Source: Raillietiella orientalis (Eukaryota). From it: DNA of 64,000 bases. The translations under genes and the position numbers were made by a program. The notes beneath the pieces were generated by a model that saw only the letters and a list, made by a program, of their open reading frames with translations, had not been told where the DNA came from and did not search any database. Of this stretch, positions 2,430 to 36,004 are shown piece after piece; the stretch's first letter is position 1, and each line of letters starts with the position of its first letter. The DNA lies in the NCBI GenBank assembly GCA_036172245.1, contig JAYWIR010000081.1, positions 1-64,000 on the forward strand, in the 5' to 3' direction.

Positions 2430-5400
2430 TGCGATTTTTCTGGTTTTTGTGTGAACACTGGTGGATTTTCATTCAATGATCCCCAACACCATAATGGACC
2501 TCTCCACCGATTCATCTGGATTTTCCATGGAAACTGTGGCTACAGTGATGAAAATTACACCCCCTCCCCATTTGCTGCTATGGATTAAACCAGAAAGCAA
2601 CTGAGACGGGAAGGAAGGTAGTGGCGTCCCTTTATGCCGATTCTATTGGTCGTCTTGGTGAGGAGGCTAATAGAATCGGCATAAGACTGAGCGCGATTAC
2701 CTATTACCTGTTGCGTGCTCTAACATGTGATCTCCCGTAGCGTCCCTTGCCATTTTCAAATTATGCCGCCGTTCAACTGCGTGCTATCAGTGGACAGGGA
2801 ACTATGGACTTCGCATGCCACTGATGCCCCTGTGCCCAGTCCTTTGCCTGGTTGAGCCTTTGCCACGAACGCGACAGATGTACGTAATCGCTTGCTCAAC
2901 TTCAAGGCTCATTTAAACCGTACTCACGGTGTGCATCTTCCGTCTGCACATTCCTTTTGCTCCCAGTGTCACAAGAATGAAAGCATCAGTCAGGCGGTGA
3001 ACAATCTCCTATGATACAGCCCTCCATTGCCTTATCCCGAAATGATCCTCACTATCCAATTCCGCTCTTTGAAGTGCAACGCCTCCTTTAGGCGCCATTC
3101 ACTGCAAAAATCTCATTATAAATGAAAATACCTAAATGTGGATCACGCCTCCGGGGATGCGAATGACGACCATGAAGACTGTGCACCCTCCATTGACTTG
3201 CCCAATTCACGAAACTAAGACGACTTTCGACTCTTAATCTAGCTGAGCTGACTCTGCTCAAGAAGCTCTGAACTGGTTTGGTACGCCACGCATTGGCAAC
3301 TAGAGCACAGTACGCTTACAGTCGAGGAGCATCCCTAACAGGGAACTCATAGTCATGTGTTCCGACTCCCCATCGGCTGTACCATCGCTACTTGATGTTG
3401 AAATACCGCCTATTCCTGACACCATAGATGGATCTCCCTTGCTGTTCCCTACTGTCCTCAGGCTGCCTGTCTACGTCCATAACTGTTCTCATGCTTTTAC
3501 TCGATATCAGCCTAGAGTGTTAGTCACCGCACTCTCGGCTGCAGATATTGAACGCTTTCTGCATCCAATGTTGGATTCTGTTTCCCCACCACATCATTCC
3601 ACAGAGGGCCAACACTCCTCCGTATCGGAACACTCGACCCTTACGATTGCCTCTCCCACACAAACTGCGATGAACCTCCTTCAACAACTCTCTCCGAGGT
3701 ACTGTCACCGTGATAGTGCCACGATCGCCTCCCCTCCTCCAGTTCACCCGGCATACATACGTGCAGTTGAAAATGAGCGCGGTCAGCGCAAACAGCCTCG
3801 TCTGATTATTTCCCGGTTTTAGAGGTCAAAAAGAACCATATTGTTGAACGAGGCGCGAACAGACAACGCAACTGTTGATTGGAGTCGTGACTGCACACGT
3901 CAGAGCTCCTAGCCTGCGTCAAGCCAGAGGTCGCAAGCAGACTGCGTTTCCGCTGCACGGCAGTTCACCGTGCTGTCTGGCCTCCTCCTGAAGCAGCCAG
4001 CATGGAAACTGCTACCGCTACGCACGCTCCGCCCGCTCCAGTTATATTGACTGAGGACGATGTGCTATATGTGTATCTTTGCACTGCCACCCATATGGCA
4101 TGTCTCCTGCCGAGATGTGAATGGCGAACCACCACCCAGCAGTCCAAAGGCACCTAAGAATCGCTGTTCCGCCACCTTATGATGGCGCATTGGATCTTGT
4201 CACGTGGTTTACATCATATCTGCGGACGGTGCAACATGCACGTATCGAGCCCCGTGTGGAGACACATTTGCGTTTTTCGGGCAGTCTGCTTTATAGAATC
4301 CGCCCCACTCTCCTGTCCTGAGCCGAACTGTGGTAAGCACTTCCGGAATCGAAAGGCTCTTGTCCACCACTCTCGCTGGCATGACTAGCTCGTCAGCGCT
4401 GAGGAAAGAGATTATATGTGAGGGCAGCGGGCGGCACCATCTGCGCTACCAACCAGTCGTCTGCTCATGCTTCGTTCGTACTTACGCTACCGCCCCCTCA
4501 CCTCGAGCCCTTAACATCATCGTTTGGCTAACTGGACTTCACCAACAACACCTGATGCGTCTCAGGTGTGGCAGGGCGCTCACCCGCAGTAGGCATGTAA
4601 CCAGATCTCGGCGTATTGGACTGCTGCGCGCAAAGCTTCCACGCCAGCGAATAACTTCCTCCAGTGAGAGTGAATTTCCTATGTCATCGACAGCAGTGCT
4701 GCCCCTGCTCGTTCACGTATGCATACTCCCGAAACATCTGTATCCAGAAACAGAAACTTCTGGTAGAACTTAATCGAAAGCCTTGGAAGAGTCCACCTGG
4801 CTACTAGTAGCCCTGGCTCAGCTCGCAAGGGCTCACGGTAGGTAGGTGGGGCTTAGCGATGCGTGCGCTCAACAACGCAAATTGCACTATACAGAGCGTT
4901 TTGGGTTTCCGCGTTTTTGTCGTCCCAGAAGCTCGTAGAAGACGAGCTACCATGTTTCCAAGATTCCTCGAAATATTATGCAATCGTGACCATTGTCGAG
5001 CTATTAATCTCGTCCTTGAAGATCCTCCACTAAAGTGCCATGCTAATCGGCAGGAAAGCGAGGTGTAGTTTCTGTATTTCTTTGCAGTTACTTCTGGCTT
5101 CCACCCTATAACTAGGAACTCCCCGTTGGCTCGGACTGCGAACAGGTGGACATGTTTTCTTTTGCTCCTTAGGAAATCGCCAGATGCCTTATGCTGTGCG
5201 AGTACACTGCCCCAGGCTCTGACGAAATCTCTTATACTGCATTCTCTTTCCTTGATCCTCAGTGACGCTTTCTGGGGGCCATATTTAACCTTTGCCTTGC
5301 CCGTCGTCGTATTCTGCCGGAATGGCAGGAGTCCCGGACAACCATCATTCCGAAGGCACATGCTGATCAATCGGATGACCCCTCTCAATTCCCTTCAATT

Positions 5401-14809: not shown

Positions 14810-16747
14810 GTCGCCGCCACTGCGTTTGGACGTGTTTCCACGTCGCTCCGTGCGGTTAATTTGCAAAGTCGCTTTTTGTGCATAATTTGCATTTAAAAGT
14901 GTGATCTACCTTGCACATTTGCAAGAAGTGGTACTTTTTAGATGACGGACGTGTATCTACAAAACTCCCGCTCGTATCATTTGCAAACAGTGTGTATGAA
15001 GATTTTTCAGTGGTGACCCTTATCAACTTTACGTTTTGTGCATCCTCTGCCCACAGTGAACCTTTTCACCAACTTTGGTGCCAGTGTAGTGGAAATTGTG
15101 GTTCCTGTGGACAATTCCGTCTTCCGCCTACATGCCGCCATGGCTTTGACCAGAGAGAATGCTTACCGGGAAGCTAAGAGGGTTGCATCGACCTAATCGA
15201 TCGCTTGGGTCCTCGCCAGTTGTACTCATTCACATTGTGACTTTTGCAACCACTGTGGTTAGCTGGACTTGGCGAAGCGTCGCACGCCATCTTGGAAAGA
15301 TGCCGTTTCACTGTTCTCTAGCTATGGCAAAGAAATTGTGGATTTCCCATGCCACAGACTACCCAGTGCCATGTTCCTTGCCTGACTACATTTGCATCCA
15401 CTGCGACAGACATTGAAAATCGCGTGCGCAACTTCAAACACACATGAACCGCATTCATGGCGCTCATGTTTAGGTGGTGCATTTTCTCTGTTAGCTGCCA
15501 TAAGAGTGAGAACACTAAGCAGGTGCTGTACCACCATCGGTGTCTCAATCTTCCTGTGCCGCTCCCAGAAATGCTCATTGCACTTGAATACCGGTGCTCT
15601 AAGTGCAATGCATCCTTTGGTCGTCCCTCCCTTAGGAGAGCGCACTATAAGTGGAAGCACCTAAACATGGACCGTGCCCTAGGTGCGGCGAATGAAGCGC
15701 ATGAGGATTGCGGACAAGGCATCGAGTTTCCCAACTCCTGGGACGAAGGCGACTATCCGAACTCGTCCAGCAGCTCGACGTCCTTACAGAACCATAATTG
15801 GTTCAACTTGTTGCCTTCAAGTAACCACAGCACCACTCAGCAAGACAGAATGACCACTGCAGCCCGGGATACTGGTGCGTATGGAAACCAAGATGGGACG
15901 CCTCCCTTGTCGTCCTCTTTCTTGGACACCGAAATGCCTTCAACATCGACGGCGGCTAAACATCATGTCAGCCTGCTACATGCTCTGAGCGGGCTGCCTG
16001 TCTCGGTACCGATACGAGCTACAAAGGACCTCAATCATCAAAATCAGCCCAGAGCACTTGTGACCAGGCTCTCCAGTGCTGAGATTGACTAATTTACTCG
16101 TCCACATCAGTGCAACGTGCCTCCCAGAGCCCTGACTCCTGTTCAATGGTCCCACAATTTCGGGCACTCGACTCTGACATTTGCCTCTCCCTTGCAAACT
16201 AGAGCTGATCTTCTTGAGCAACTCTCCCCGAGGGATTCTACCACAATACTGGTATCGCCTTCTCCTCCATTTTCCCCTCCTGTGCATATCGCATATGTTC
16301 ATGCAGTCGAGCGAAAGAAGCCTAGGCGCAGACAACAGCGCTCGGTCATCCCACGACTACAACGTCAAATGCGGCTCTCCCAGGCGCGTAATACACAATT
16401 AATGTTGCGAGACTCAGATCGTTTAGTGAGCGTGCACCAACTAGATTACCACCGCATCCTCGCTCCTTAGCACACGAGAACCCGATCCCGGTCACACAGA
16501 AAGTGAATGAACCGCCTTTCCCTTCCCAGATACAGACTGCCTCCTTGTCCACTACATCCGGCACCTGCCGCACCTTCGTTCCTGACTGAGGATGATGTCC
16601 TCCTGGTCTACCTCTCGACCAGTACCAGCACGCCCTGCCCACTTCCACGATGCAGATGGAAGGCCACAACACAGCAAGCCAAGTCCACTCTAGGGTCGCT
16701 GCGCCGACACCTTAAGATGGCTCATTGGATTACGGTACTTGGTTCTA

Positions 16748-16955
16748 TTCCCCCAAATATTACTGCCCTCCCACGTTTGAAACTTTGTTTTGTTTTTTTT
16801 TATCCCCACCCCGCGCATCAGAAGGACCTCGCCGGAATAGCGCCGGCAAGCAGCAAGCTGTTTTGATGTGGTGGATTTTCGGGATCGCCACGCGACAATT
16901 CTATATATTTTTAGTTTGCATAAACAATTGCCCCGGCATATCAGGGTGTGAAGAC
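16748..16955 (+). mobile_element. Short 3'-end fragment of the L1/Tx1-like family inside copy C
   Basis: T-rich UTR followed by gccccggcatatcagggtgtgaa, matching the 3' ends near 14757-14780 and 46151-46176. Confidence 0.6.
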
Positions 16956-19783
16956 AGCAACGCTGTCCCTGCTCGCCCCGCAACGCCTCCCAGCTAGAGA
17001 TCTGCCTCGGGGAGCCAAAGGGAGGTTAGGAGAAGGTGGTCGGATCGCCTCAGGGAAACAGCCAGACTCCTTGAAGACATTGGCGCTCATCACCAGCTGT
17101 GGACAGATGGGGCCTCGCCATGCGTGCACTTGACTCTTCCTATAGCACAATCAGAGATGCTCTTGGACTGCGCCCCTTTGCTGTGCCCACGATACATGCG
17201 AGACCCTCGAGTGTCACCTCGATCCCTCCAAAGGTTGTACAATCAGAACCGCCGCCGAGCAATCCAGCTTATATTGGACGGTTTCCCGGTTAAGTGCCAT
17301 GTTGAGCGGCAAGGAACGCAGGCGTACTTCGTTCATCTCCTTGCGGCTACGCCCGGGTTTCAGCCATTGAGCTGGAGCTCTGAACTTTCTGTGAACTATG
17401 AGCCGATTGACATATCTCCCTTCGACCCGAGGGAGATTGCCAGCTGCTTGCGGTTATGTGAGGACACTGCTCCGGGAGCAGGCGGCATCCCTTACTCGGC
17501 TTTCCGCCGCCTTGACCCCGAGTGCCGCTTTCTCACTGCAATCTTCAACATTTGCCTCGCACACCGCCGGATCCCGCCGGAATGGAAAAACTCGCGCACG
17601 ACCCTCATTTTAAAATCGCAGGACGACCAGCTGGAGGACCTCTCCTAATTTCGCCCGATTGCGATCAGTCGCACCATCGGAAAGCTTTTTTTCAAAGGGA
17701 CTCGCACGCCGAATGCGGGAATGGATCTCAGACAACCGGGTATTGGGGCCACATCAAAAGGGTTTCCTTCCCTATGATGGTGTCCTCGAGCACAATTTCA
17801 TGCTGAGGCACCAGATGGACTACAGCAGGCGTTATCGTCGCACATTGTGCGTTGCATGGCTGGACTTGAAGGACGCCTTTGCCTCAATCTCGCAATCCCA
17901 GCTCTTCTCCTCCCTCCAATGTGCTAATGCTAGCGATAGCCTCATAGAGCTTATCTGCCAGATTGAATCTCAAAACAGCACCCAGATCGTCACCACCGAA
18001 GGCCTCACTGACCCCACTGCGGTCACCAGGGGCGTGAAGCAGGGATGCCCTCTGTCTGGCCTCCTGTTCAACATTGCCCTGGAACCGCTGTATGTGCATC
18101 AAGCAGAACATTCCAGGCGTCAATTTGTTGGCCTATGCTAATGATCTCGTTCTTTTGACGGAAGACCCGGCTACTCTGCAACGGGCGCTCGACTGTGCGA
18201 GTGGGATGGCTAGCCGTCTTGGGCTTAGCATCAACACGAAAAAGTGTGCCTCTCTCCACCTAGACCCCCGCTCCCCACGTGCTGCTGGCAAGCAACGATT
18301 TCGGGTTGCGGGTGAACCCATGCCTGCCCTCTCGGATGCCGGCATGTATAAATACTTAGGGCGACCGGTTGGCTTTGACGTCATCCACAGTGACTCCCTA
18401 GATGAGGAAATTTTAGCCAGCGTGACGATGGTGTTTGATGCTCCCCTTGTGCCATGGCAAAAAAACGATGCCATTAAAACTTTCATATTCTTATTCTTCG
18501 TCCACTCGTCACCAATTGGGTCCGAACCGAAAACTTTCTGCGCTGATCAAAAAAGCAATCAAGGAGGACATCCTCCCTCTCACACAAGCTTCCTCCACGA
18601 AAGAATTGTATAATTCCGTAGCCCAAGGAAGCTTGGAATTAGTCCTCCTAGCAGAGAAAGCCGACATAATGGCCATCGATTCTGCCTTCAAACTGCTATC
18701 CTGCTGGGACTCCATCATTCGAGAAATGGCTTGGGAGTTCCTTCGCGAGACAGTCCGAAGGAAAATCAAACAAGAGCCCTCACCGGACCTCATATCGCGA
18801 TACCTGAATGGCATCATTGCTGCACCCTTTGATCTGCCATCAGGTGATCACAAGGAGTACTGGTCGCGAGCTCGTGAGGCCTCGAAACGGCTCCAGCTCA
18901 AGTGAGTGGTTAATGCTGACCAAGAGACTTCTCTTTACAGCTTGCCACAAGAAGCTTGCGTGAATCTGATCGGAAGATCGTAGCCCGGTCAATCCGTGGC
19001 CGACGTTGACTTGGACGTTGTGAAGCTTTCGAAGCCAAGCCTCATCTATTCCGGATCATCGAATGTGTGGCTTTTCTCCCGGAATCTATGGTCTTTTTGG
19101 AGATCATGAGATCCTAGTGGCTGGCGCTTCATCCACCGTGCGCGCCTTAACCAATGCACCTAAATGGTAATAGAAAGCGCCCCGGCTTTCATGAGGCCTG
19201 CCGTCACTGCCCATATCCCAAGGAGACTCTGTCTCATGTCCTGCGTCACTGCACCAAGCACTTGGAGACCGCCATCATGGCACGACACAATCAGATCCTG
19301 GATCTAATCGATCCAGTCGTTCGTTCGAAGTGGCGCCACCTCGCCATCGAACGATCCGATCCGAGCATAAACAGCTCCCTTCGCCCCGACATCGTTACCA
19401 CTGACGGCAATCGCATGCTGATCGTGGACGTCACAATTCCATTCAAGAACCGAAGAGACGCCATAGATACAGCAAGAAGCCCAAAGTTGGACAAATATGG
19501 TGGCATCAGCAAGGAATACCAAGCTCAGGGCTCCCAGGTTAAAGTGGAGGTGATCGTTGTCGGGTCGCTGGAAAGCTGGCACCCGTACAACGACGCCGTT
19601 CTCAGCTGTTTCGGCCTGAGTGCACAGGAAATAAAGGCGAGTCGCCCCAGGATCATGTGCTCAGTGATCCGAGCTGCTCGAGATATCTACTTTATCCACA
19701 AAACCACTCGGCCCTCCAGCGACATCGAACCTGCTGCCCAGGAACTCACTCCGGCAGCGCATTCCTCGTGGTGTAGTGCGGCT

Positions 19784-20425
19784 CCAGCACTAGAATTAGT
19801 AGCTGAGGCATGCCGACACTCTGCAAGCAACGAGCCAGCCGGTGACTAATAAACGGCAATTACACAGAATGCCGCATTACGAGCTAATTTAAATTTGCTT
19901 GGGTACGCAACACTCGTGAACAGAAGAGCGGAAGCCAAAAACATCTTCCTCAATATCGGAATCGCGGCTAACCAGTTCCCTGAAGACGTCCCTGGGACTG
20001 CAATTAATTTTGCACTCATCGATGCAGTTTCCGAAGTGCTAAGGAACGCTAGCGGGTTCAAAATGTTCGAACTCGCAATGCCCAGCGTCCAAGCAGGAGG
20101 ATGCCGAGCTATGATGCTCCCATCGCGACCAGAGGGAAACTAGAATCCAACAGGAGTCGCATACACTAACAGCGACTTTGTTACCAGCTCTCTAAACCGC
20201 GAAAAAGCAGTGACGTTCGGAGTTGCAGCAGTACTGCTCCTCCAAATGTACAAGGAACCAAGACCCTTCGGGGTACAACCACACAATGCGTGGGCCGGTT
20301 TCAATTACACTGCTGCCATCCCAATTTCGCCCGCCCTAGTCAATTCCCGGAATGACCGGCGAGGAGCAGAAGGTGATCCACACCATATTCCTGCAAGATT
20401 TAGGACGAGCGTGTTTATTTGTGTC
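19784..20425 (+). pseudogene. Endogenous viral element: partitivirus-like (dsRNA virus) capsid C-terminal fragment
   Basis: One frame with stops at 19847-19852 and 20141-20143: PALELVAEACRHSAS..NLNLLGY..GIAANQFPE..INFALIDAVSEVL..FK..SLNREK..LQMYKEP..W..P..NSRNDRR. Resembles, from memory, capsids of arthropod partiti-like viruses. Confidence 0.6.
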
Positions 20426-20539
20426 CAAAAATTGTGAAAACCTGGATGTCACCCAGTGCGCTTCCCCTCTCTAGGGTTTTTATTGTTTAACCAAAAGCGT
20501 GGTAAATAAAACGTCGCCGCCGCCGCGTTCGGACTGGTC

Positions 20540-20901
20540 GGTTGGTCAAGGTGGACGCTATCGCAGTCGGGTCGCTGGGAAACTGGCACCCGAACAACGA
20601 TGCGGTCCTGAGCTGCCTGGGCCCGAGCAACACAGAAATAAAGGCGATCCTCCCTTGAATCGTGTGCTTAGTGATCCGGGCGGCAAGGGATATCTACTTA
20701 GACCACACCACCAGCCGACCATCGGCGGACACCGAACCGATGCTCTCGGCACCCTTGTCGCCTGCAGCTCATCCATCATGGTGCGGGGCTGCATTCAGAG
20801 ACCCCATCGAACTATAACCGAGTGATCAATGAACTGCGAATTCCAAGTGCATCCACCCTCGTTTGGCAACTATTGTAAAATAAGAAACGTGGAATAAATA
20901 A
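20540..20901 (+). mobile_element. 3'-terminal fragment of Utopia/NeSL-like retrotransposon (copy D) joined to 28S
   Basis: ggtcaaggtggacgctatcg...ctggcacccgaacaacga matches the RLE C-terminus of copies A and B. Ends gaaacgtggaataaataa directly before the 28S sequence. Confidence 0.85.
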
Positions 20902-21320
20902 AGTTACTCCCACCGTTTACTCGCACTTGGTTGAATCTCTTCACTTTGACATTCAGAGCAGTGAGCAGAAATCACATCGCGTCAACACCAACAACGGCCA
21001 TCGCGATGCTTTGTTTTAATTAGACGGATTCCCCTTGCCCGTGCCAGTTCAGAGTCGATCGCTGCATACCTGCCGAAACGCTCCGGGACCAAAGAGTCCG
21101 GTCGCGCGCAGGGCGACCACCAACCGGAACTTCAAGCGAGGCCGTTCCGGGGTTCGGAATCTCTAGCAAGAACGCGATGGTAGACCATCATCGCTACAGA
21201 AAAGGGCGCGCCATCAGAGTGCGCCGCGGGCCCAAGCGGAACCGCCGGCACGTACGCGCCCCAAACGAGCGGCGAAACGCCGATGTGCCGTTAGCCTGTT
21301 CTCTCGTGCCACCCTGCCAC
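20902..21320 (-). rRNA. Degenerate 28S rRNA fragment: half upstream of the insertion plus GC-rich expansion-segment-like sequence
   Basis: agttactcccaccgtttac..cttcactttgacattcagagca..gcagaaatcacatcgcgtcaacacc..tcgcgatgctttgttttaattagac is the reverse complement of conserved 28S. The right boundary is uncertain beyond about 21060. Confidence 0.9.
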
Positions 21321-21329
21321 AGCTGACGC

Positions 21330-21940
21330 TGAAGCATCGCCTCATGTTCCAACTTTCCTTTCCTCAATCAGGAGCATCTCCCATAACAATCGTGAAACCA
21401 CTCCACCAAACTCTTCAGCAACAAATACACCTAGACCTTCAAGTGGCACTGCTTTAAATGCCCCAGTCCATTCTACGATCGATAATTTCCTCCAAGAAAT
21501 TCACCCACCCTCAATGGATCAACCCTACTCCCTACTTCCCAACTTCTCTGAACAATTTCGTGTCCTAATTTTCCAACCTAAAAAGAAAGATGAAGAATAG
21601 AAATGCTGAAGTCCAAATTGATCTCCCTCCTCTTATGCTTATGTCGTTCTAATAGCGAATTCTCCCCTCGATCTTCAAAATGCCCTCAACCACTTTGCTT
21701 TGGCTACCAGCGTAGCCCGCTTCACCATCAACCCAAATATTGTGCCCCTTAGCATTTCGTTTCTTTTCCCGAATGGTCCTACATCGGGTTTGACCCTCTT
21801 ATCTATGACAGTGCATCGGTAAATTTGCCCTTAACTTTCAAATTATTCTGCAATCTCCTCAAGCGCTGTGGAAGAAGTTATATGCCATCAAAACGTTTTT
21901 CATTCCCTCCCTCGTACACGACCTTCGTTTAGGTAACAAG
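21330..21940 (+). mobile_element. Highly decayed non-LTR RT remnant
   Basis: LLAYVVLIANSPLDLQNALNHFALATSVARFTINPN resembles the YADDLVLL..LQ.AL...GL.IN segment of the RT. Confidence 0.4.
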
Positions 21941-21954
21941 CAATTATCGGCAAA

Positions 21955-22370
21955 TCTTCTCGCCAACCTACGTCTCAGAAAGCGGCAACTGGAACTCTTC
22001 GACACCAACAAAAAACCAGCAAACCAGAGAACCATATTCTGGTTTTACGACACATTTGGCAACGCAGGAAAAACTACGATGGTCAAATATCTATACCGCA
22101 AAAAAGGAACCATCTACATGCATTTCTGCCGAAAAGCTGGCGCAGCCCATATCTACAATGGGGAACACATCGTTGTCACGTGACACACACGTGTCTTCAC
22201 ACGTGACAACCAAGAACATGTACAATATGGCTTTGTAGAATCCCTCAAAAATGGGATATTCGACTCCAAATATCAAGGATCGATGAAGTACTTTGACGTT
22301 GGAAACACTCATATTTGCGAACTGGGAGCCCGACAACTCAAAAATGAGTGCTGACAGATGGTTTGCAAAA
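21955..22370 (+). pseudogene. rep: CRESS-DNA virus Rep SF3 helicase domain (nanovirus/alphasatellite-like), endogenised
   Basis: RTIFWFYDTFGNAGKTTMVKYL (Walker A); YNGEHIVV (degraded Walker B region, followed by a stop); QYGFVESLKNGIFDSKYQG; after a frameshift, FANWEPDNSKMSADRW (motif C region). Confidence 0.85.
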
Positions 22371-22654
22371 AATATTGGCAGACGTGCAGATTCCCAAGAT
22401 ACTATTCGGAAAATGAATGGGAAAGGATCCATTCTCCCACGGGTTTCAAGCCCTAGAACAGAGCAAGTCCATGACACGCCTAACTCCTCTTTGAGCACGC
22501 TTTCACCAACAAGCAGCGAAATCACTCAAAGATATTTTTTACTACTAGTATATTGCTAAATCTCTGTTCTGATTGAACTCCAAATAAAACATTTGGGTTA
22601 TTCTATATATAAGGTAGCCTTTTGTTAAAGTACCCTCCTTTGGAACCGGTTAAT

Positions 22655-25600
22655 AGGAAAATAACTATTTTACTAACCTCAAAATATTAACCATTTACTA
22701 CTGCATGATGAAAATACACAAACATCTTGCCTTGCACTGAATTTTGCATGAATTTCTTGTCACCACGTTCTACCTAATTTTCCAAATACATATTTCGAAT
22801 ATAATGTAGTAACACGTGATTCCTTTAAAAACAAAGGCTAAAAAACTGCCACATGACAAAAAAACCAAATAAAATCTAGAATCTGAAGTAACAGCCAGTT
22901 ACTTGAACAGCAAGATTTCAATTCGCACTAGTTTCACGGGAAAATTCCGCGATTTGCAATAGCAACCGAAAGATGTGCCAACATGCCAGTTAGCCATAGA
23001 TACACTGAACGATGTCATCCATATCATTCACACATACTTTCCAACCCTGGGTGCGAGCCCAACCTTGGATGGACATACCGAAGCAATTAGCACCTTCAAA
23101 CATGCCCACCCCTTATATGGGCTCTTTTCATATTAGGATACAATCAGGGCGTCATGAAAAGCATTGCCAATTCCAAGATCTTAAAATGTACAGATGATTT
23201 CGTGATTATAACCAGAAATCCAAACGATCTGCTATCGGCCTCAGAACTGACTGGGGCACTCACAAAATGAATTATTGTACTGCCAAACACAAATTAGTGT
23301 AACTAACTTTACTGCCAAGCGAAAACACCGACATCTCTAGGGATGACTTTCTTCTCCATTTTCAAGAGCCTGAAGTGTTCCATTCGACTACCACACCATG
23401 CATAATTTTGCCGTGCACACAGTACACTGCAATACGATGCGTGGTACACATTACACGTGAATCATGTGCATGATGTTTTCAGATCTCGTGATGCGGTTTT
23501 TCAATGATAGAACTTATATTGAAGAGATGCATACATGCAGATACATTTGCATAGTGAGTTCACAAGATGACATGTTGGCAACCACCTAAAACATCCGAGT
23601 CCTCACAAGCTTAGATTGCACCTACGATTTGAAAAAGTCAACTCTACTCTCAGCATGCAACGAAATTACTAACAGCTTACACGTTAGACAACACTACTGC
23701 ATCAACTGCAACCCTACTGTCAGTCTCGACAGACTTGGCCATCCAGACTTCCCTCTGGCTGAATGTACATTACAAAACAGTACAGCAACATGCACAAGCA
23801 TCTCATGCACATCTCATCAGCACAGCAGGCCCTGCTGTAACAAAGCATGGCATGAACAAAAACGTTCCAATCCTAAACACTTTCACAGCAGTGCAAGTCC
23901 AACAGCTCCACAAACTTTCTTACTTGAATTCACATCTCCAGGTCTCACTGAATCACCTCATTACAAGCAGAACATCCACACATTTTTTTGCCATCCATAA
24001 GCTCTCCTGTCAACAACCACCATCACAGTAAACGTGCAAAGTGGAACAGGACCAAGATGCAGTTCTCAAAACTCTAGTAGGTCGCCCTTCCATTGCTTCT
24101 TGACGACGTTCTCGATTTCTGATGACTGAAGAAAAACAACAACGACATTGCAAGCGAGTGCTTCCGTTCAACTTTTTTCTTTGTTCTGCATCACTGCAAA
24201 AGAAATCACAAGCATTCCAGCACCTTTCCTTTTCCCGATTCTCACAGCAATTTTCAAAGAAGCAAAACTTAATTCCTTTACCGTAAAGTGCTCACTGCTA
24301 ACGGCACCTTCCTTTTCCCATTGATCACATACTTCACAAATGCCTACATGCCTTGCCACCTCACCATTCCACCATCCACACTTTAAGCCACAGCATTTCT
24401 TCCCGCGTTCCAAACCGAAACTGAACCGTGCAGCGCCACACCCACTTCAACCAGAAAGCGCAGCCGCCCCTTTCCCTCTTCCCGCTCTTTAGCCTCTTCC
24501 CGTGCGCTTCAAGATGTGCATTTCGAGTTGGAACAGACAGCGCGAAGTTCGATCTCTCCAAATCTTTTGGCAACAACAGCTTCCCTTCAAATTGCAACTT
24601 TCCACTCTTCACCACTGTTCAATGATCCTTTCGCAATGATTTCCTTACGTCTTCTCCATTGAAGACATTCCTCGGTTCTTCCACCCATGTTAGTGTTCTT
24701 GTGCAATCTGAGGTCTCCTCCGAATGCACAAGAGGCTTCTCACATTCTCCTATCGTCACTTTTACGATTTGTTTGGGAAGTGTTTCATCAGCGGGCGCAC
24801 GTTTTCAACAAGCACTGCACATGTACACGAAAATGAATCGAGTTTCAGATTCTCTTATACACAGAAAAGCTGCTTTGCATCGTAAGCACGAAACCAAACC
24901 ACGCATGGAAAGGGAGAACCCTTTCCATGCTTGGCTTTTCAAGATTGAAAATTCGCCAGGGCCTGCAGGGAGATTCTTTCACGGAGCTTCCAAGGATATG
25001 AATTTCAATTCAGAACGGTGGTGGAGACAGAACAGCAATCGGGCACGTCGGAACGAATATCTCACTTGTCCTGATGGAAACAACACCAGGAATGAGTTTG
25101 AAACAAGTTTGTGTTTGATTAAATTAGGCATGAATTCTACGGATATAAGAATGAAGGAAGGAATCTTTGCATAAATTGATCATTCATTGGAACTGCCTAT
25201 GTTGCCTCCAGGACATCAGCCTTCCTGACTTGATGAGAGAACGAAGGGAAGTGCCAAGCTGAAATGCGCCAGATGCTGGTAATTTTTCGTTAGACTGCAA
25301 CTGTTTCTCTTTCCATGAAATCGAGAAAACTGGTCAAGAAAATAGCGTTCCTGTAACAACCACTCCTTCTCCTCATCACACAAATTTTTTCGAGAGTGAT
25401 GGCTTTGCGAATTATTGTTGGTTTCTCACCGCTGACAGTATTTTGCTTCCTAAATGCTGTGCAGCTCCTTTCATGCAAGAAATTCATATTCTTAATTTTG
25501 CAAATCCCATCGGAAAGATGCTCACCATGTGCAAGAGCATTGGTTTCTTCAGAAAATTGGATGGATAACCCTTTGATGGATGCTGCCCTTTCTTTATCAA

Positions 25601-26795
25601 AACTTGGAAAAGCCTTCTTAATGAATTCGGAGTTCACCATCTCATCTGCTCTTCAAATCGCCTCGATTGGCCATTGCAAGCACCAGGATTCGTGCTTCCA
25701 CCTTTCTTAGGTGTAAATGAATTTCAATTAAAACTTGCATCACAAGTTGGTTTCTTGGAATACGTGTTTTCCGGAGCTTTCAGTAAACCTGCATTTTTTT
25801 CCCCTAATTTCTCCCCAGAGTTACGTGAATGAAAGAGGATGCATACGCCTTTCGTTTTCTGATTTCAGATTTTCAATTGTATGATGTTCAGTGTAAGAAG
25901 TCAGCTCGAGTGAAGAAGCTTCGTGCAGCTCATCAGATTCCACCGAAATCGAGGAAACGTGCCGTCCGACACACAAGTGAGTACCTTTTTGAAAACCTAA
26001 TTATTAAATAGTCTCGTAATTTTGAACATCTGTTTCAAAGCCATCTTCAAAATCCGAACCCATGCATTCAACATATTTGCTATTCGAGCTGATTTTTGTG
26101 TGCATTTTTGTGGAATCGTCATCTTTAGATTCCTAAAGGAGGATTTTCCTTTCGATCCAAAAACTTTCCTTGTATCCATGCAGGGCAACCGCTGCTGCAG
26201 GTTATTGAGCAACTGTTTTCTTACAAAGTTCGGTTTTATCATCCTTTAGAATTTTGCAGTTGAGGCATTGAGAAACTGTGCTGAAATTCCATACCAAAGG
26301 TGAATGCTGCAGTTCTGCATTCCTGCCGTTCAGCTAAACCATTTGAATGCTATTTTGGCACAATGCTTTTTTCCGACGCCAACTTACTTGCCTTTTGCCT
26401 TTCGAATGCACTGAGAATTAGCACGTCTTTGCTGTCCTGAGAATGTTGATGACCTATCCTAAACGAAACAGTTGCATTTACTGTCCACTCTTCCAAATTC
26501 TAGGCAGCTGCGACGTTTGCAATGGAGAAGTGCTCTTGGGTGCACTCGCTTAATTGCTTGCCAAGTGTGCTGGCAGATTATGATGTTTCCCACTTTTAGG
26601 AATTCGGAAATGGGGATTGTCTGCAATTTTCAGCTGCATAGGAGGAATCCAGTTGTAGCAATCGAGCAATCTTTGGTGCTTCAAAGCAGGAGTTGAGGGT
26701 TCCCTGGGAACATGTACATGTTTGCTGTCTAGCTGTGTTCGATCATATGCTGCCCCCTTAGTCAGTTTCTCACATTTGGCGTTCCCTCAACCTAA
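22655..26795 (+). repeat. Unclassified interspersed repeat, copy 1 (inverted copy at 55530-61902)
   Basis: Colinear inverted blocks: 22655-22900/61660-61902, 22900-23350/60620-61060, 23600-24780/59480-60450, 24790-25280/58470-58915, 25290-25480/56940-57130, 25870-26795/55530-56480. Paired ORFs include 24361-24615 with 59630-60118 and 26472-26696 with 55641-55865. Confidence 0.85.
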
Positions 26796-27724
26796 ATGTG
26801 GTGAGCGGGTCTCGGATGAAGCACTTCAAGGGAAGGCGTGACGACGAAGACTGCAAGGCATATATGTTTACATGCCGATCGATACGAGTCTTCATGTCTT
26901 GAGGTGTCCCACATTGCTCCGCGACTGACTGGCCCTGAAAAGCGTCATTGGGCTGACCACCACTTCAGTCATGAGAATTCAAGCAGGGATGTGCCATGAA
27001 AACGGAAGCGTTTTCTTCTACAATCCAATAACCCAACCACGCCGACCAAGAAGTATGTTTAGTACCAAACAATATGGATCTGAATGTCTCTACCAAACAA
27101 GAAATATATATATGTTAGTTGTCAGGGACCACATGAATCAATTGATATTTACAAATGATAGGATACTGAAAGTGATTGGTTACTTAGATAATTGCCAGGG
27201 TGAGAGTGAATCCACATCTGGATCTGTATTGATTACTACGAGTCTTGCAATATGTAAGAGTTGTTCTGTAAGTGTCATTTTCCATACATATACCAGAAAT
27301 TGCTGCTGCCATGCTGTCAACACTGGTGAGAGAAAGCACTGTGCCATAATCCAAAAGAGGTGATGCAACATGAAGTGTTAAATTTTTTTCCATTGCAGTG
27401 AAGGTAGCAAGACGTGCACCAACGTTTGGAGGCCACATATCACAAAAATGCCACCATATCTTTTAGCCAACTCCGTATGTTTTTCTCCTTCATTTCAAGT
27501 GTCACAAAAATATGAAACTGTGCATTAGTATTTTCGGTTTGACCAAAGACTGATTCCTGAATTTTGTGTGAACGCAAGGGACATATATCACTACTTCACT
27601 TACAGTTAATTTGTAGTACTCACTTGGTGAGTACAGAAAGTGTAACATCCAATTAATACAAAATCATGTGCAACATACGGCAATCTCTCTTTCTCCAAAG
27701 CATTCCTCACCGTTAGACAGATTA

Positions 27725-27845
27725 CGCCTAATCCCCAGTATTCCATCTCACCAATCCTTTGGCCACCAAAATGTGTTTTTCCATTAAGAAGCTATTGAGT
27801 AATCAAACTATAAGGGCGAGTAGACCTTGCGTGAATTTTATTCCA
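27725..27845 (-). pseudogene. rpoB: Bacterial RNA polymerase beta subunit fragment
   Basis: [34 protein letters not shown] versus the conserved KIHARS.GPYSLVTQQPLGGK..FGGQRFGEME.W. Confidence 0.9.
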
Positions 27846-28105
27846 AGTATGATTCCAAGACTTAATAGACTGTAGAATCGAAAGCTTTATACCCACAGCA
27901 TTGTTTGCATACGGTGATACGCAACATGCCGCTGCTCCCCATAAATCATTAGGAAAAATGTGACACTACCTCTTCACCAACCTTAATTACATCTCCAACA
28001 CGCATGCTCACCTATGATATGTGAATCTATCTTGATATTATAACGCTCAAGCCATGCAATAGCGTCTTTTGTTCTAGGAATTGGCATGTCCCTCCTCATC
28101 GCCTG

Positions 28106-28450
28106 TTATATTCTGAACATCATCATATTTTCCAAAATATCTATAAGCTTGATCATAGTTTTCAACTTGTCTTCACTAAGTGATATTTGCTCATTAGGCT
28201 TCCAAATTAACTTTGCAACAGATGCTGTTCTCAGTCCAGATTCTAACCTCTCTTTTGTACTATGAAAACCTGTATGGTCACAAAAAATCCCACACCCAAT
28301 TTCATACAATGTACAACCCAAGGCTCGAGCATCATGTGCGATCTGCAGCATTCTGTCTTGCACAGCTTTTGAAGCAAAGTTATACTATTTTTGTTCTCAC
28401 AAAAATTAATGAACTTTGTGCCAACACAGAGACATCTCTGGAATTATTTG
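28106..28450 (-). pseudogene. yebC: YebC/PmpR family regulator, C-terminal fragment
   Basis: AKLIWKPNEQISLSEDKLKTMIKLIDILEN. Confidence 0.75.
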
Positions 28451-29631
28451 GCATATTTTCTGCTGACAATACACATTCTTCTGCAGCCACCAGATCACCA
28501 TTGTAAACATAAATATCTGCTAATTCTTGATTTGGCCTAAGAACTTGCTTTTTTACAGCTGCTCTGTAATTTTGCCAGCTCATCAGATGCTTCGTACCTA
28601 TTAAGACTCGATTCAATTATATGCAAAAGATCAGACTTTGCACCGAGCTCGGGTCTTTCACGCAACTCCTCAAACTTCAACACAGTAAATCGATTATCAA
28701 ATTCAATCGTATTGCTCCCACGGATAGCTATTGTATTTTTCTTTGTTGTTTCTCCTTGCTGGCTCAATGCCTAGTGATACCTGTGATCAAACTTGCTTTC
28801 TGTTTCAGATGAATTCTTTGAATGCCATGTTTTTCGAATGTATTTAGCAATATTCTGTGTCATCAACACACCATTACCAAGGCTGTGCGTTTCTGGTGTA
28901 ATTTCAGCGTTATCTGAGATGTTTTCCTCTGCTCTACACAAGTTTTCTAGAATCCGAACTAGTTCTTTTGAAAAATTTGCAATAGCATGCTTTTTGGCAG
29001 CATCGAGCTAACGTAGAAGATTGCAAAGTGTTACATCATTATATTGAAATGCCTGAAAATTGGTTTGGATGTCTCGGAGTGATACTGGCAACTTTGAATT
29101 CATCAGTAGATTGAATGTTGCTGTTGCAAATATACAAGGTAGCTTAGCAGAGTTAATCGCTCAAATGAACAGTGACATCACAAATGTGAAGGTAAAATCC
29201 AGATTACAAAACTTCTTCACAAAGCAGCCGGAAAAGCATATACCTCTTTGGTGAGAGAATTTATAGTGAAGGCTTTATAAGAGCAAAGATGATCTGTATG
29301 CTAAATGCTTTGTACTCAGAACCAGGTGAGCTTGAAGTTGATATAATTTTAATTAATTAAAGAGTCAGTTGCAAACATGCTTTACAATGACATAAAAATG
29401 TTGTGCAATACCAGAGTACAGCACAGACTGGAATAAAGATGATTGTGATGCGTTTTATGAGCAACTTCTTGCAAATTCAGAAAAATGCAGGAAGTCTTGA
29501 AATCATAGCAAATGATGGGATTCATTTTGGATCTGGTGTGCAGGTTGAGATTGCCAACTAGACTCAATAAAATTTGCTGCATGCGCATATTTTATTCTAA
29601 AAAAGTATCATCAGTGTCAGGGTTTCACAGA

Positions 29632-29745
29632 ATGGCTATAGCTGTTTTGATGCCAGCTCTTTCTCCTACAACGAGTAAAGGAAATGTTGCAAAATGGATC
29701 AAAGAAGAAAGTGATTTGTTAGAACCAGGACAGATGATCCAAGAC
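29632..29745 (+). pseudogene. pdhC: Pyruvate dehydrogenase lipoyl-domain N-terminus, alphaproteobacterial type
   Basis: MAIAVLMPALSPTTSKGNVAKWIKEESD. Confidence 0.75.
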
Positions 29746-29989
29746 AAAGATATTGGAGGCTATTCTGGAGTCAACTTCAATCTTCGATATGCCAGGAACA
29801 GGTCTAATAAGTCAGCTATGTACTATAGAAAAGGTTTTATTTAGGTTTCCTGATTATTTTCCTGACATCACTTCAAAATTCGAAGCTATCAGAATTGATC
29901 TGCAAGAGGTTAACCACACAGTTGAGCGCAAAAGATCAGAACTCATTATTAATGAAGATCTTCATTTGCGTATGCTTCAATTACTACAT

Positions 29990-30190
29990 ATCTAAAAAGA
30001 TCAACTATCTCTGCTATCCTGGATTGGTCTTGGAAGAATTTTCTAATTTCTGCAGTAGTAATTGGTCCAAGTCCATTAATGTTTATCAAACCTTCCTCAT
30101 CTGAAGTTTTCACAGCAGAAAAAAAAGTTGTCAACGTCACCGTAGTGAGTGGAGAGTAACTTTGCAGCTGATTTTCCAACACTTCCAATG
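29990..30190 (-). pseudogene. ligA: NAD-dependent DNA ligase HhH fragment
   Basis: EGLININGLGPITTAEIRKFFQD. Confidence 0.55.
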
Positions 30191-31689
30191 ACAAGTGAGT
30201 ATATAAAGTTCCCTAGAGAAATGTTTCTTGACTTCTGATTCATCCTTGATCATCCACCTATCCTGAATAGCCGACCTAGATTTATTGATAGATAAAAGTG
30301 AATGGATCACTATGTGAAACCACGCAGTTTGAAGAGAAATAAGATTTGCACCAAGATCTTCATACAGCGTAATGAATATACACGAATCACGTTTCTCAGG
30401 ATGTCAAGCATCCAATTCCTTATCGAAAAATAATTTGTATTGCAAGCAGGAGCAAACCTTAGCGAATTACGCTTGCTGCGGTTTCAGGGGAGCTTATGTG
30501 GATTATATTGCCTGCATATCTATTTTCTAAAAGACTAGAAATAGAATCTACTTTGCGCGTAAGAACCATTTTTGCTATTTCTGCATTACTAATTGCTCGC
30601 TTTTCTAATAAAAGCTTCTTAAAGAGAGCACTTAATACGAGTCTTGCAGTCTCATTCCATATTTTATGATTCTGGATGATCTGGAATCAAGCTATTGTCT
30701 TAATGTGGGCTAAGTAGTCTCTTTCACTAAGGAGTCCCCGGTTCTCAGCTCGCATGTCAAACAGATGTCAAACATGTCAATATAATTCGAGAATCAAGGC
30801 ATTATCTTGTAAAAACTCTCTACCACTCTTTGGATAGTTCAATGCATTCCATATAAGTCCTATACCTGAAGAGCCAGGCAGAGCCTTCTTTAAAAGCTCC
30901 TGAAACTGCTATAAACTTTGTATGCGCCAAGATTATCCAAGTTTCGTGCAATCTCCCCTGAAAGCTTATGTCGCTTGAATACGGCAGCTTTGGAATCTCC
31001 AGAAATAGCAGTTTGTACCTCAGAGCTTATAGCATTCCTCTGCTCAAAGTATGTTCTTATGTATGTATCGGCTTCAGCTTCAACTCTATTTGGGAATAAT
31101 CAGCGCATAATAGGGTGCATCCCTCTTTAGCTATGAATGCTTCTCTGATGCTTGCACCATCTTTAGTTTTTATTAAGATATTTCCTGTTTTGAAGAGAAT
31201 CGGCCAGTTGCCCTTACGGTCAGTTCAAACGTTGCATGTAGGCTTTTAGCAATAGGGTTGATTGAGTTCAATGTTGCTTTCCCTACACTTCTTGGCCCTT
31301 AAAATAAAAGCGCGTGCGGCAACCTATCTGAAAGTACAGAATCTAAAAAAGAACTTGGAGATTTTATCATGTCCATACAGATCATTATTTTTCATAGGGT
31401 CTCACGCAAATCATCTCCAACTGAATGTATGGAGTTTCGCGGCTCTATTGAACATGGAATTGGCATCGAATTCATATCAACAACATGTCACGAGACGGAC
31501 CGATCTCTAGCGTTTTCAAGCCACTTTCCAAACAAGCCATCTTCAAAATGCTCTGGAATCCAGTTCATCTTCTGATTATTTGCGATCATTTGTTCTTGAA
31601 GCGCTGTAGCCTTTACATACCAAGAATGAACCCTCTCGAAATCAATGGAGACCACGGAACGAACTTACGTTCGTTTGCTCAGAGGGCAT

Positions 31690-31950
31690 ATAAGACCTGC
31701 AAAAGCAATATTCCCAGAAGGTACGAACTAGAGGAAGCCAGCTAGTTGCTTTAGCACGCTTTGATGTTTGGCAGTATGGATGCAGTGATAGACATGGGCA
31801 CTGGGCATGGAGCAGGGCATTTCCTATCGGTACATGGAGGCCCGCAGAGCATAGGATATGGCAGAAAGGTTGTCCCGCTTCGGGCTTGCATGGTGCTGTC
31901 AAATGAAAGGATAGGATTTCATATGGATGGAGAATATGGTATCGAAGGTT
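31690..31950 (+). pseudogene. pepP: Xaa-Pro aminopeptidase fragment
   Basis: GTGHGAGHFLSVHGGPQSI..VPLRACMVLSNE..GFHMDGEYGI. Confidence 0.85.
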
Positions 31951-32569
31951 TGTAGGATATTTAGCGTAAGTTCTGCAACTTTACTGTCTTCGTACATGAA
32001 GGGTTTTCTTCTATGTGTGTATTGCTTGAGATTGCTCCATCTATTTCTTGCTAGAAAGCCTAGGTGCGTTGTAGGTTTTGGTGAAAAGATAATTGCATAC
32101 TTTTGCAAGAGTTTAGCTGTGTCTTTTCCAGATACTGTTGGGTTGCCAAGCACTGTATTAAATAATGGCTTTCTTTTCATCCAGTAAAATCTCTGATGGT
32201 TAAACGTCAGGTCAGCACGGTCAGTACTGATGCCTTGTAAATAACGATGGCCATAGGATGGATAAGCAAATGCTTTCGGTTCCAGGCAAACGAATTCTGG
32301 TTTTGGATAATGCACGTTATGTTTTGGCAAGTGCCGTAACTTCCTGCAGTCCCTTTTGTACCAACTCGTCTTCAATGTGTAAAATAACTAAGTCGAAAGA
32401 CACTTGCCTTGTTGCTTGCTCTCGGCCTCGTCTTCTTTCGGTATTACCGCTCGTCTGACGTTCCGTGGTCTATAGCTCATTTGTTTCATCTTGGATACCA
32501 ATCCTCTTAGATTACAGCATCAGATTTTATTAAAAATGCGTCAAGCGAATTGATTAGGAATAATGTTCT

Positions 32570-32790
32570 AGGAGCACTTTCCATAGATGTTCATGGGAGT
32601 AGAAGTTCAACAGTCAAATGTTCTTTGGAATCTATTGCTTCATTTGATTTTGTGGAGCTTTGTAAGATGCCGCTGGGAGTTTATGATTATATTGCTATCT
32701 CTGATGTTTTTGATGTCATTATTATAGAAAATATGCCTAAAATGTGTGAAGAGAATCATAATGAAGCTTTGAGGTTTATTACTCAGCAAA
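32570..32790 (+). pseudogene. zapE: ZapE/AFG1 ATPase fragment
   Basis: FDFVELCKMPLGVYDYIAISDVFDVIIIENMPKM..NEALRFIT. Confidence 0.85.
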
Positions 32791-33839
32791 AAAGAGATTC
32801 ATCTGCACAGCAGACGCCAGTATAAATGATTTATACTCTGGGAAGAAGCATAAAAGCCTTAGTAGTAATGAGAGGACTTGAATCGCAATATCCGAATTTA
32901 TTATGTGCGGAAGAGTCCAGGCCTGGAACTACCGTCATATCCTGAGAAGGATTGAAGGCAGCATCCAGGCACAAACGACGCCCAGTTGAGCAGGTGCAGT
33001 GAAAATCTTCTTCGGACCCAAAGAAGCAGACTTCAAGCTAACATTAGTTAATTCTGAAACTCTTGTTTTGCATACAATATACGTGAAAACTTTGTTACTT
33101 TCAATTCTAAAAAGAGCAGTTCACCGATCACATTTATATTCTCATAATGATTCATCACAATGTCAAGCTCATTGCGAAACTCTTCGCCATTCTTTATCTT
33201 CTCAATCGCGTGAAATTCCTTTATTCGCAGCTCTTACTGTCAGCATTTGGTTTGATCTTGATATCAATTCCTTTTCTATGGAAGTTGAGGAGTTTAAATT
33301 TCTAACTATAGATATCATTTGATCCAGATTACTTGCCAACTTATTATGAAATAACTTGATTATATTCTCGACAAGCTGACTTTCCAGTACTTGCAGGGAT
33401 TCACCAAGTCTTCCAGAAAATTCATCGAATGCAACTCGCTCTTGTGCCTTGTCAATGTCACGCTGCCTTACTAATCCTCCAGGATGATGCAGCACACGAA
33501 CGCTTCCTTCATTGGAGGCCATCTGTTATTTCTCAATAAATATATAGGAAGGATCAGAATTCTAGAGATTCTGGCATCTCAACAAAAGCCTCATTGAGAA
33601 AAGAAGATTTTTCCCTGGAGTGTTAATGCAGCACAGCAGTTGGAAAAAGCAGTATGTATTCCCTCCTTAATGTAATATGGGAATCCATGTTCTGTTTGGC
33701 TTTCACATCCTAGTTTTCGTAGGCCAGACCGGCTAGTGAATGTGCCGTCCATGACAAATGCTCCAACATTACGCCAATCTACTTCTAATTTGAAGCTCAC
33801 CAGATTTTATCCAACAAAAAGATGTAAATGGAACGTATG

Positions 33840-34100
33840 TGCCGCACTACTTGACAATGAACACACATTGCTTTTGCGCCCGTTTCTCAGCTAAATTCTC
33901 AGCATCGGCCCCGCAAGAGGCACCAAGAAGCTCTCCCCACCCTTCAAGTCCCATGCAGCAGTGCGTGTATTCCAGCACCCGGTCTTTGCAAGACCCTGCT
34001 CTACCACTAAATACATCATTTGGATCTTTGTCAACTTTGATGTCTTTCACCTCTTTCACAGCATTTAGCAGTGCAACTGCTTTGCCAATGTCTATATAAA
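33840..34100 (-). pseudogene. traN: F-type conjugation protein TraN fragment
   Basis: Cys-rich VFSGRAGSC..HCCMGLEGWGELLGASC...LAEKRAQKQCV. Confidence 0.75.
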
Positions 34101-35990: not shown

Positions 35991-36004
35991 TTGGTATCTG
36001 GTTA

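What the first reader, a model, noticed from the sequence alone, without database searches (positions are those of the whole stretch)
19770..20511. dsRNA-virus capsid fragment captured inside a retrotransposon, in frame with its ORF
Similarity to sister copies stops at gtgcggct (~19783) and resumes at ~20440 with the normal 3' terminus. The ~640 bp between encode a partitivirus-like capsid segment. ORFs 19154, 19895 and 20210 share one frame, so the viral segment continues the RLE domain. Partitiviruses have no DNA stage, so this looks like RT template switching onto viral RNA and back. The frame match has a 1-in-3 chance of being coincidental.
Basis: partly seen in the sequence, partly recalled or inferred. 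Interest (0 to 1): 0.75.

Follow-up and report, generated by a model that had tools for sequence, protein, structure and literature searches.

The report
Partitivirus capsid fossil inside dead retrotransposon
A 633-base piece of the coat-protein gene of a double-stranded RNA virus has replaced 46 bases near the tail of a broken jumping gene; two matching chromosome copies carry the same jumping gene without it, so the virus piece most likely arrived later and makes no working fusion protein.

Summary
The insert is real. Window 19782-20414 encodes the C-terminal half of a partitivirus capsid (63% to pseudoglobi virus capsid, whose model has the partitivirus fold). It sits sense and in frame in the 3' end of an RLE non-LTR element, 98 nt from its end, replacing 46 nt, with no TSD. 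Two homologous contigs (C33, C72) hold the same element copy and flanks without virus. All three share 4 frameshifts and 2 stops. Best reading (0.5): reverse-transcribed viral RNA was patched into an already resident copy. The frame match is probably chance: two stops close the fusion after 22 viral codons. Against this reading: the position, 3 stops in 208 codons and extra flank divergence suggest an old event, so a chimera made by the family's own RT, later (0.22) or at insertion (0.18), is not excluded. The family inserts antisense into 28S rDNA. Unchecked scan notes report other virus-in-LINE insertions in this genome; none held all my partitivirus search words.

The parts
14810..19781 (+). 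5' and coding part of a dead RLE-type non-LTR retrotransposon copy (third in a head-to-tail array)
   Evidence: head motif at 14810; collinear with the paralog at C33:639-644k; zf-C2H2 and RVT_1 matches; lesions counted
15448..16092 (+). N-terminal ORF fragment with a C2H2 zinc finger
   Evidence: PF00096 E 0.013, below the curated cut-off
17614..18141 (+). reverse-transcriptase fragment
   Evidence: PF00078 E 1.5e-10
17212..19116 (+). span holding the disabling mutations shared by the window, C33 and C72 copies: frameshifts at about 17212, 17694, 18099, 19116 and stops at 18903, 19007
   Evidence: six-copy alignment against paralogs with open frames of 924 and 817 aa; one paralog (C33c) also has a stop at 18903
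19151..19781 (+). CCHC knuckle plus PD-(D/E)xK restriction-like endonuclease region, open frame
   Evidence: motifs read directly (motif names recalled); 153 related places in the genome
19782..20414 (+). partitivirus capsid-protein gene fragment (about residues 237-446 of the 467-aa pseudoglobi virus capsid), sense strand, replacing 46 nt of the element
19847..19852 (+). two adjacent in-frame stop codons in the viral fragment
20141..20143 (+). third in-frame stop codon in the viral fragment
20415..20512 (+). last 98 nt of the element (3' UTR and A-rich end)
   Evidence: aligns with C33/C72 and sister copies
20513..20902 (+). fourth, internally deleted copy: about 22-nt head joined to the RLE 3' end; present in all three homologous contigs
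20903..21027 (-). 28S rRNA gene fragment, antisense to the elements; the family's target site
   Evidence: RF02543 E 1.4e-21; same junction nucleotide in other loci

Best explanation
A partitivirus infected the host lineage or an intimate associate. Its capsid message was reverse-transcribed from an internal position by a retroelement RT acting in trans (inferred; the enzyme is not identified). The 633-nt product was joined into a break near the 3' end of an RLE element copy that already lay in this 28S-associated retrotransposon array, and 46 nt were lost at the break (replacement shown; break repair inferred). The event happened on the lineage of the window's contig only. The frame match is coincidental and nothing full-length can be translated. 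The insert is a fossil; its only plausible activity is as a source of small RNAs (untested).
For: C72 is collinear with almost the whole window, and C33 with 15620-30984; both carry this element copy at 91-94% identity, with the downstream deleted copy and 28S flank, but without the virus. The three copies share 4 frameshifts and 2 stops against intact-frame paralogs, and their divergence fits neutral decay (synonymous fraction 0.32 observed against 0.29 expected, P 0.47). The 46 nt are identical in C33 and C72 and differ at 6-21 positions from all 7 sister copies compared, so no donor for a precise reversal was found. The window's flanks share 19 left and 19 right diagnostic bases with C33/C72 against the 4 nearest sisters. 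Single copy in the assembly. No frameshift in the insert, where 2.2 indels would be expected if it were as old as the element (P0 0.11). The genome holds 8 other partitivirus-capsid fragments; 0 of 8 have this RLE family in the 2.5-9.9 kb fetched around them.
Against: The insert is sense and 98 nt from the 3' end, where TPRT starts; a random patch would rarely land there (post hoc). It has 3 stops in 208 codons, against 0.5-0.7 expected if it decayed only since the contigs split (P 0.01-0.03; Fisher against the element's branch P 0.023). Window-specific substitutions within 100 nt of the junctions number 19 against a mean of 8.3 (2% of windows, 1 of 51 non-overlapping), raised on both branches (11 and 7), which suggests that filled and empty alleles split about when the element inserted. 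The three contigs are recombinant mosaics, so shared lesions 665 nt or more away could have spread after the capture. No reads were available to check the junctions.
Confidence: 0.5

Rival explanations
1. A later event by the family's own RT on the resident copy. Either TPRT at the regenerated 28S target copied 98 nt of element 3' UTR, switched once onto viral RNA, and overwrote the last 144 nt of the resident copy; or a double-switch cDNA converted the resident copy.
For: Explains sense orientation, 3' position, no TSD and the empty homologues together. The family is site-specific, and 28S-distal copies are more decayed than 28S-proximal ones (1.5-1.9 against 0.1-0.6 lesions per 100 codons), so new copies seem to land right behind old 3' ends. 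R2 5' junctions often delete upstream sequence (PMC2718515 passages). Flank divergence is raised for about 97 nt on each side (9 and 10 against a mean of 4).
Against: Copy 4, which lies between this copy and 28S, is shared by all three contigs, so re-insertion here needs an early date plus recombination within 98 nt. The raised divergence is symmetric, not right-sided. No donor sister closer than 84% exists in the assembly. No microhomology above chance. Free cDNA is not a normal product of RLE elements (recalled).
Confidence: 0.22
2. One reading: a double template switch (element, virus, element) during the TPRT that created this copy. The empty versions came from an independent insertion of a sister at the same 28S site, or from early gene conversion, and recombination later homogenised the flanks.
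For: Replacement without TSD is the signature of double switches in LTR chimeras (PMC5131818 passages). Stop count and flank divergence fit an age near that of the element (expected stops about 1 at 5% decay, P 0.07). Site specificity makes recurrent insertion at one nucleotide plausible; mosaicism is shown.
Against: Needs two extra steps. All 6 shared lesions must have crossed onto the filled haplotype. No indel in 633 nt (P0 0.11). LTR chimeras had a median 6-bp microsimilarity at 25 of 29 junctions; none is demonstrable here. R2-type jumps are known to go end-to-end, not internally (recalled).
Confidence: 0.18
3. DNA-level copy: the fragment was pasted from an older endogenous copy elsewhere, or from DNA made by the viral polymerase, during break repair.
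For: Would explain the excess of stops. The genome has 8 other capsid fragments. Partitivirus-derived DNA has been reported (PMC12027680 passages).
Against: No donor in the assembly by DNA or protein search; the other fragments are 27-39% identical to the closest virus, so they come from other lineages.
Confidence: 0.07
4. Assembly chimera or contamination by viral cDNA.
For: Single contig; no reads could be checked.
Against: Three nonsense codons cannot come from a replicating virus; the flanks are contiguous with haplotype-specific host sequence on both sides.
Confidence: 0.03

Closest known systems
Partitivirus-derived endogenous viral elements (capsid-like sequences in plant, insect and other genomes; PMC12027680), including the genome-annotated flatworm proteins VDO13206 (Rodentolepis nana), CDS33491 (Hymenolepis microstoma) and VDP94741 (Echinostoma caproni)
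   Same: Fragment of a partitivirus capsid gene in a nuclear genome among transposons; same viral lineage as those three proteins and pseudoglobi virus (tree support 94/89, not starred).
   Different: Both junctions are resolved to a few nt by two empty homologues, and the insert replaces part of an RLE element.
LTR retrotransposon chimeras made by double template switch (Tan et al. 2016, PMC5131818) and LTR-virus hybrid DNA in Aedes cells (Tassetto et al. 2019, PMC6797480)
   Same: Foreign RNA copy replacing part of a retroelement, without a TSD at the internal junctions.
   Different: The host is a non-LTR RLE element; no microsimilarity shown; the same copy exists empty at the same site, which the LTR cases did not show. 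In the Aedes data all SINV hybrids were with LTR families.
Endonuclease-independent L1 insertions and cDNA patches at double-strand breaks (recalled: Morrish 2002, Sen 2007; no call)
   Same: Internal start, no poly(A), no TSD, deletion at the target.
   Different: The cargo is viral RNA and the RT is unidentified.
28S-specific NeSL-clade elements of planarians (LIN9_SM, LIN24_SM, LIN26_SM in PMC4640811 and PMC5035012; R5, whose target is recalled) and R2
   Same: Zinc finger, RT, CCHC and RLE domains; insertion close to the R2 site of 28S rDNA; tandem copies.
   Different: Inserts antisense to the rRNA, about 15-16 nt upstream of the R2 site (R2 position recalled); clade not tested; orientation of the LIN and R5 families not seen in the passages read.

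Membership tests
Partitiviridae capsid-derived EVE | Sequence homology to the capsid of a classified partitivirus | tested here: met
   63% to DAZ87740; pseudoglobi virus is listed as Durnavirales/Partitiviridae in Table S3 rows 84-85 of PMC9241645, with host association marked unconfirmed
Partitiviridae capsid-derived EVE | Partitivirus capsid fold | tested here: met
   Model of the full-length homologue P0002 (pLDDT 88.8): 8phh Z 15.3, rmsd 4.6, 299 aligned; 3es5 Z 11.0, rmsd 5.0, 222 aligned; 7ncr Z 10.0, rmsd 4.8, 210 aligned; Verdadero and Galbut virus capsids E 3e-23 and 3e-19. The insert itself was not folded.
Partitiviridae capsid-derived EVE | Integrated in host DNA and decaying | tested here: met
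   3 stops; host flanks collinear with two homologous contigs
Partitiviridae capsid-derived EVE | Junctions confirmed by raw reads | not testable with these tools
   no run was listed
Template-switch chimera made at the copy's own insertion | All homologous copies of the insertion carry the cargo | tested here: not met
   1 of 3 homologous contigs
Template-switch chimera made at the copy's own insertion | Replacement of element sequence, no TSD around the cargo | tested here: met
   46 nt replaced; longest shared word 6 nt
Template-switch chimera made at the copy's own insertion | Microhomology at the switch points | tested here: inconclusive
   similarity of insert ends to the replaced segment is not above internal viral positions (fractions 0.44/0.20 left, 0.88/0.98 right); at most 1-2 nt inferred on the right from a nearly invariant residue; donor virus sequence unknown
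Functional RLE-capsid fusion gene | Open frame through the capsid part and an intact upstream ORF | tested here: not met
   stops after 22 viral codons; 6 frameshifts and 2 stops in 781 aligned element codons
APE-LINE-mediated retrocopy (EBLN type) | TSD, poly(A) tail, intact 3' end of the viral message | tested here: not met
   no TSD, no A-tail, match ends about 20 codons before the capsid's end
28S-specific RLE non-LTR element (R2 / R5 / LIN type) | Zinc finger, RT, CCHC and RLE domains | tested here: met
   RLE and CCHC motif names recalled
28S-specific RLE non-LTR element (R2 / R5 / LIN type) | 3' ends at a fixed 28S nucleotide | tested here: met
   10 of 30 loci have the 28S motif after the RLE match (some overlap or are homologues); same nucleotide in the 5 where both end and motif were read; Rfam
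R2 clade proper | Sense insertion at the canonical R2 site | tested here: not met
   antisense and about 15-16 nt upstream (R2 site position recalled)
NeSL clade | RT phylogeny with NeSL-1, R5, Utopia | not tested
   no named reference elements were retrieved; one search gave 2 hits at 38-39%, neither named as an element

The most novel reading that the evidence does not exclude
The reverse transcriptase of a 28S-targeting RLE (R2-group) retrotransposon itself switched from its own 3' UTR onto partitivirus RNA and fixed a virus-element chimera in the germ line, either while creating this copy or while overwriting its tail. That would be genomic evidence that RLE elements, not only LTR and L1-type elements, endogenise RNA viruses by internal template switching. 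I found no such case in searches (open-access library only).
Probability: 0.4. Interest if true: 0.7.

Novelty: new member of a known kind. Interest (0 to 1): 0.42.

Why it matters
Endogenous fragments of RNA viruses are common, but the step that joins them to the chromosome is rarely visible. Here two empty homologues give the pre-insertion state almost to the base, so the competing routes (repair patch or retrotransposon template switch) can be tested with population data. The fragment also shows that the partitivirus lineage known from flatworm data sets reached this host's germ line, which bears on the unconfirmed host of pseudoglobi virus. The host family, an antisense 28S-targeting RLE element in tandem arrays, may itself be undescribed.

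Tried and rejected
Pfam and PDB sequence searches with the insert found nothing; with P0002/P0003 or the 60-sequence profile nothing significant. RdRP_1 search of the genome: no match, which does not show absence. Sequencing runs: none was listed, so no reads were laid and expression was not examined. IMG/VR scan with P0002: 9 pattern hits, 0 confirmed. A search for shorter, closer relatives gave 1 hit among 514 candidates, E. caproni VDP94741. Dating by changes at conserved capsid columns (29 of 138 against 6 of 115) looked like extra decay, but in the tree the insert's branch (0.37) is no longer than the paths to the hymenolepid proteins (0.37, 0.44), so I dropped it. The flank counts (25 within 100 nt) were inflated by 6 misaligned viral bases; one search gives the corrected 19. 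Apparent microhomology at the left junction was rejected after the null test. A resemblance of the right junction to the 28S target was considered by eye and not pursued. The term 'Pseudoglobivirus' is in 0 papers of the library; the virus was found in a supplement under a spaced name. The host organism was not identified. The bioRxiv paper 10.1101/2025.02.02.635956 was seen as abstract and outline only.

Full report
1. Observation. The window holds a head-to-tail array of decayed RLE-type non-LTR retrotransposons. In the third copy (about 14810-20512), similarity to its homologues stops at 19781 and resumes at 20415. The 633 nt between are in the frame of the RLE ORF. Read with X at stops, they match the putative capsid of pseudoglobi virus (DAZ87740; 63% over 214 aa; E 1.6e-75) and a Rodentolepis nana protein (58%), the only 2 hits among 2644 candidates. 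Table S3 of Dheilly et al. 2022 (PMC9241645; main-text passages and two supplement rows seen) lists pseudoglobi virus as a two-segment member of Partitiviridae with an unconfirmed trematode host. P0002 has 370 relatives at E up to 0.001, among them brine shrimp partiti-like virus 3 and proteins of Hymenolepis microstoma and Echinostoma caproni. A model of P0002 (pLDDT 88.8) matches solved partitivirus capsids best (8phh Z 15.3, rmsd 4.6, 299 aligned). In a 28-row tree, drawn from the best-scoring full-length relatives only, the insert groups with the three flatworm-associated sequences (94/89, not starred). The viral identity is therefore shown.

2. The fusion is not a gene. Two stops at 19847-19852 end the RLE frame after 22 viral codons, and a third lies at 20141. 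The element upstream has 6 frameshifts and 2 stops in 781 aligned codons. A frame match has a one-in-three chance, and nothing here shows that it was selected.

3. Empty homologues. C72 is collinear with nearly the whole window and C33 with 15620-30984. Both carry this element copy, the deleted fourth copy and the 28S flank, but have 46 nt of normal element sequence, including the ORF's stop, where the window has the virus. Whether they are alleles or segmental duplicates is not known. Against paralogs with open frames of 924 and 817 aa, all three copies share frameshifts near 17212, 17694, 18099 and 19116 and stops at 18903 and 19007 (one paralog also has the 18903 stop). Their pairwise dN/dS is 0.50-0.66, against 0.06-0.10 between paralogs; the synonymous fraction does not depart from the neutral expectation (P 0.47, 0.30, 0.09). 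Polarised changes put the root between the window and C33+C72 (61 against 55), so topology alone cannot tell gain from loss. A loss would have to restore the 46 nt from a donor; they are identical in C33 and C72 and differ at 6-21 positions from the 7 sisters compared, and the genome search found no closer copy (8 matches). The insert is single-copy. Gain on the window's lineage is the simplest reading.

4. Junctions. There is no TSD (longest shared word 6 nt) and no A-tail, and the insert ends resemble the replaced segment no more than internal viral positions do. A nearly invariant residue straddles the right junction, which implies 1-2 nt of overlap at most. The donor virus is unknown, so microhomology remains open.

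5. Results against my reading. (a) The insert is sense and 98 nt from the 3' end, where TPRT begins. (b) It has 3 stops in 208 codons; 0.5-0.7 are expected at 2.4-3.5% decay (P 0.01-0.03) and about 1 at 5% (P 0.07). It has no indel, where 1.1 (young) or 2.2 (old) are expected. These two clocks pull in opposite directions. (c) Window-specific substitutions within 100 nt of the junctions number 19 against a mean of 8.3 (2% of windows; weaker at other widths, 0.015-0.32). Within 97 nt of each junction, 11 changes are derived in the window, 7 in C33+C72 and 2 are unclear. This fits an old split between filled and empty alleles, suppressed conversion beside a heterology, or flanks from a sister RNA. 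(d) The contigs are recombinant mosaics, so 'dead before capture' is likely but not proven: the nearest shared lesion is 665 nt away.

6. The host element. The array ends in an antisense 28S rRNA fragment. Ten of 30 related loci have the same 28S motif behind the RLE region, some of them overlapping or homologous. The site is about 15-16 nt upstream of the R2 site (position recalled). Copies far from 28S are more decayed than 28S-proximal ones, which suggests that new copies insert directly behind old 3' ends. Planarian NeSL-clade families that target 28S are described (PMC4640811 and PMC5035012, passages); I could not test the clade. Site specificity is what keeps two rivals alive: recurrent insertion at one site, and re-insertion that overwrites an old tail. 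R2 5' junctions often delete upstream DNA (PMC2718515, passages).

7. Mechanism. Shown: viral origin, replacement of 46 nt, empty homologues, shared lesions, closed frame. Inferred: an RNA intermediate, the enzyme, the order of events. These weights are judgement, not computation.

8. Comparison. Partitivirus capsid EVEs are widespread (PMC12027680, passages), and this genome has 8 more, 0 of 8 beside this RLE family in the flanks fetched. Replacement chimeras are established for LTR elements (PMC5131818, passages), and LTR-virus hybrids for Aedes cells (PMC6797480, passages). LINE-1 chimeras with foreign RNA are catalogued (10.1101/2025.02.02.635956, abstract only). Searches listed no RLE-element-virus chimera; the library is open-access only and I saw listings, not full texts. 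Unchecked notes of this scan describe other viral fragments inside LINEs in this genome, some with TSDs; none lay near this place. They suggest that such captures recur here, and I did not test them.

9. Verdict. A genuine, well-bounded partitivirus EVE in a dead 28S-targeting RLE element: a new member of a known kind. Interest 0.42.

Noticed in passing
window:20903-21027; G000:C81:71.0-71.6k; C83:277k; C33:629.8k; C72:187k and 196.5k; C31:2508k: The RLE family ends antisense in 28S rDNA, about 15-16 nt upstream of the R2 site, and forms head-to-tail arrays in which 28S-distal copies are more decayed. Possibly an undescribed target specificity.
   Followed up: partly
window:21809-22183: ORF fragment with a Walker-A-like motif that looks like a CRESS-virus Rep helicase (label recalled; no significant Pfam match). 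Same strand as the array, shared with C33 and C72, with related stretches on many contigs.
   Followed up: no
window:40800-43030: Bacterial-like fragments: VirB11-type ATPase (PF00437 E 3.4e-5, below cut-off) and RNA polymerase beta'. The ATPase piece lies mostly in a 10-kb stretch (32449-42421) that C72 lacks. Possible endosymbiont DNA transfer.
   Followed up: partly
G000:C109, C42, C4, C119, C48, C65, C18, C14 (L041-L048): Eight further partitivirus-capsid fragments of other lineages; C42 and C119 are 96%-identical homologues; C4 keeps a 398-aa open frame; two lie near the window's other LINE family.
   Followed up: partly
window:19581-20607: Window-specific C-to-A changes are enriched near the junctions (6 of 24 against 23 of 430; 5 of the 6 in two clusters) and among inferred changes inside the insert (about 7 of 22 against 8 of 80 in the element). 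Post hoc and unexplained.
   Followed up: partly
window:1-1726 / 2535-4293: 1.7-kb inverted repeat (90% overall, 99% in the outer arms), also present in C72.
   Followed up: no
window:22655-26803 / 55534-61903: Large inverted duplication at about 85% identity, shared with C33 and C72.
   Followed up: no
window:15600-27200 against 27200-32448: Divergence between the homologous contigs is 4-7% in the transposon array but about 1% in the neighbouring stretch, with switching topologies.
   Followed up: partly
window:37001-41000: Extreme GC skew (0.34-0.66), probably a simple or tandem repeat.
   Followed up: no
P0005 (KAK7580160, Parthenolecanium corni): A 1976-aa predicted insect protein made of tandem repeats of a partitivirus capsid fragment (16 matched stretches).
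   Followed up: no
G000:C81:about 70.6k (L025): An element head in the other orientation is preceded by a sequence like the canonical R2 site, so a sense-oriented element may share the same 28S gene (site recalled).
   Followed up: no
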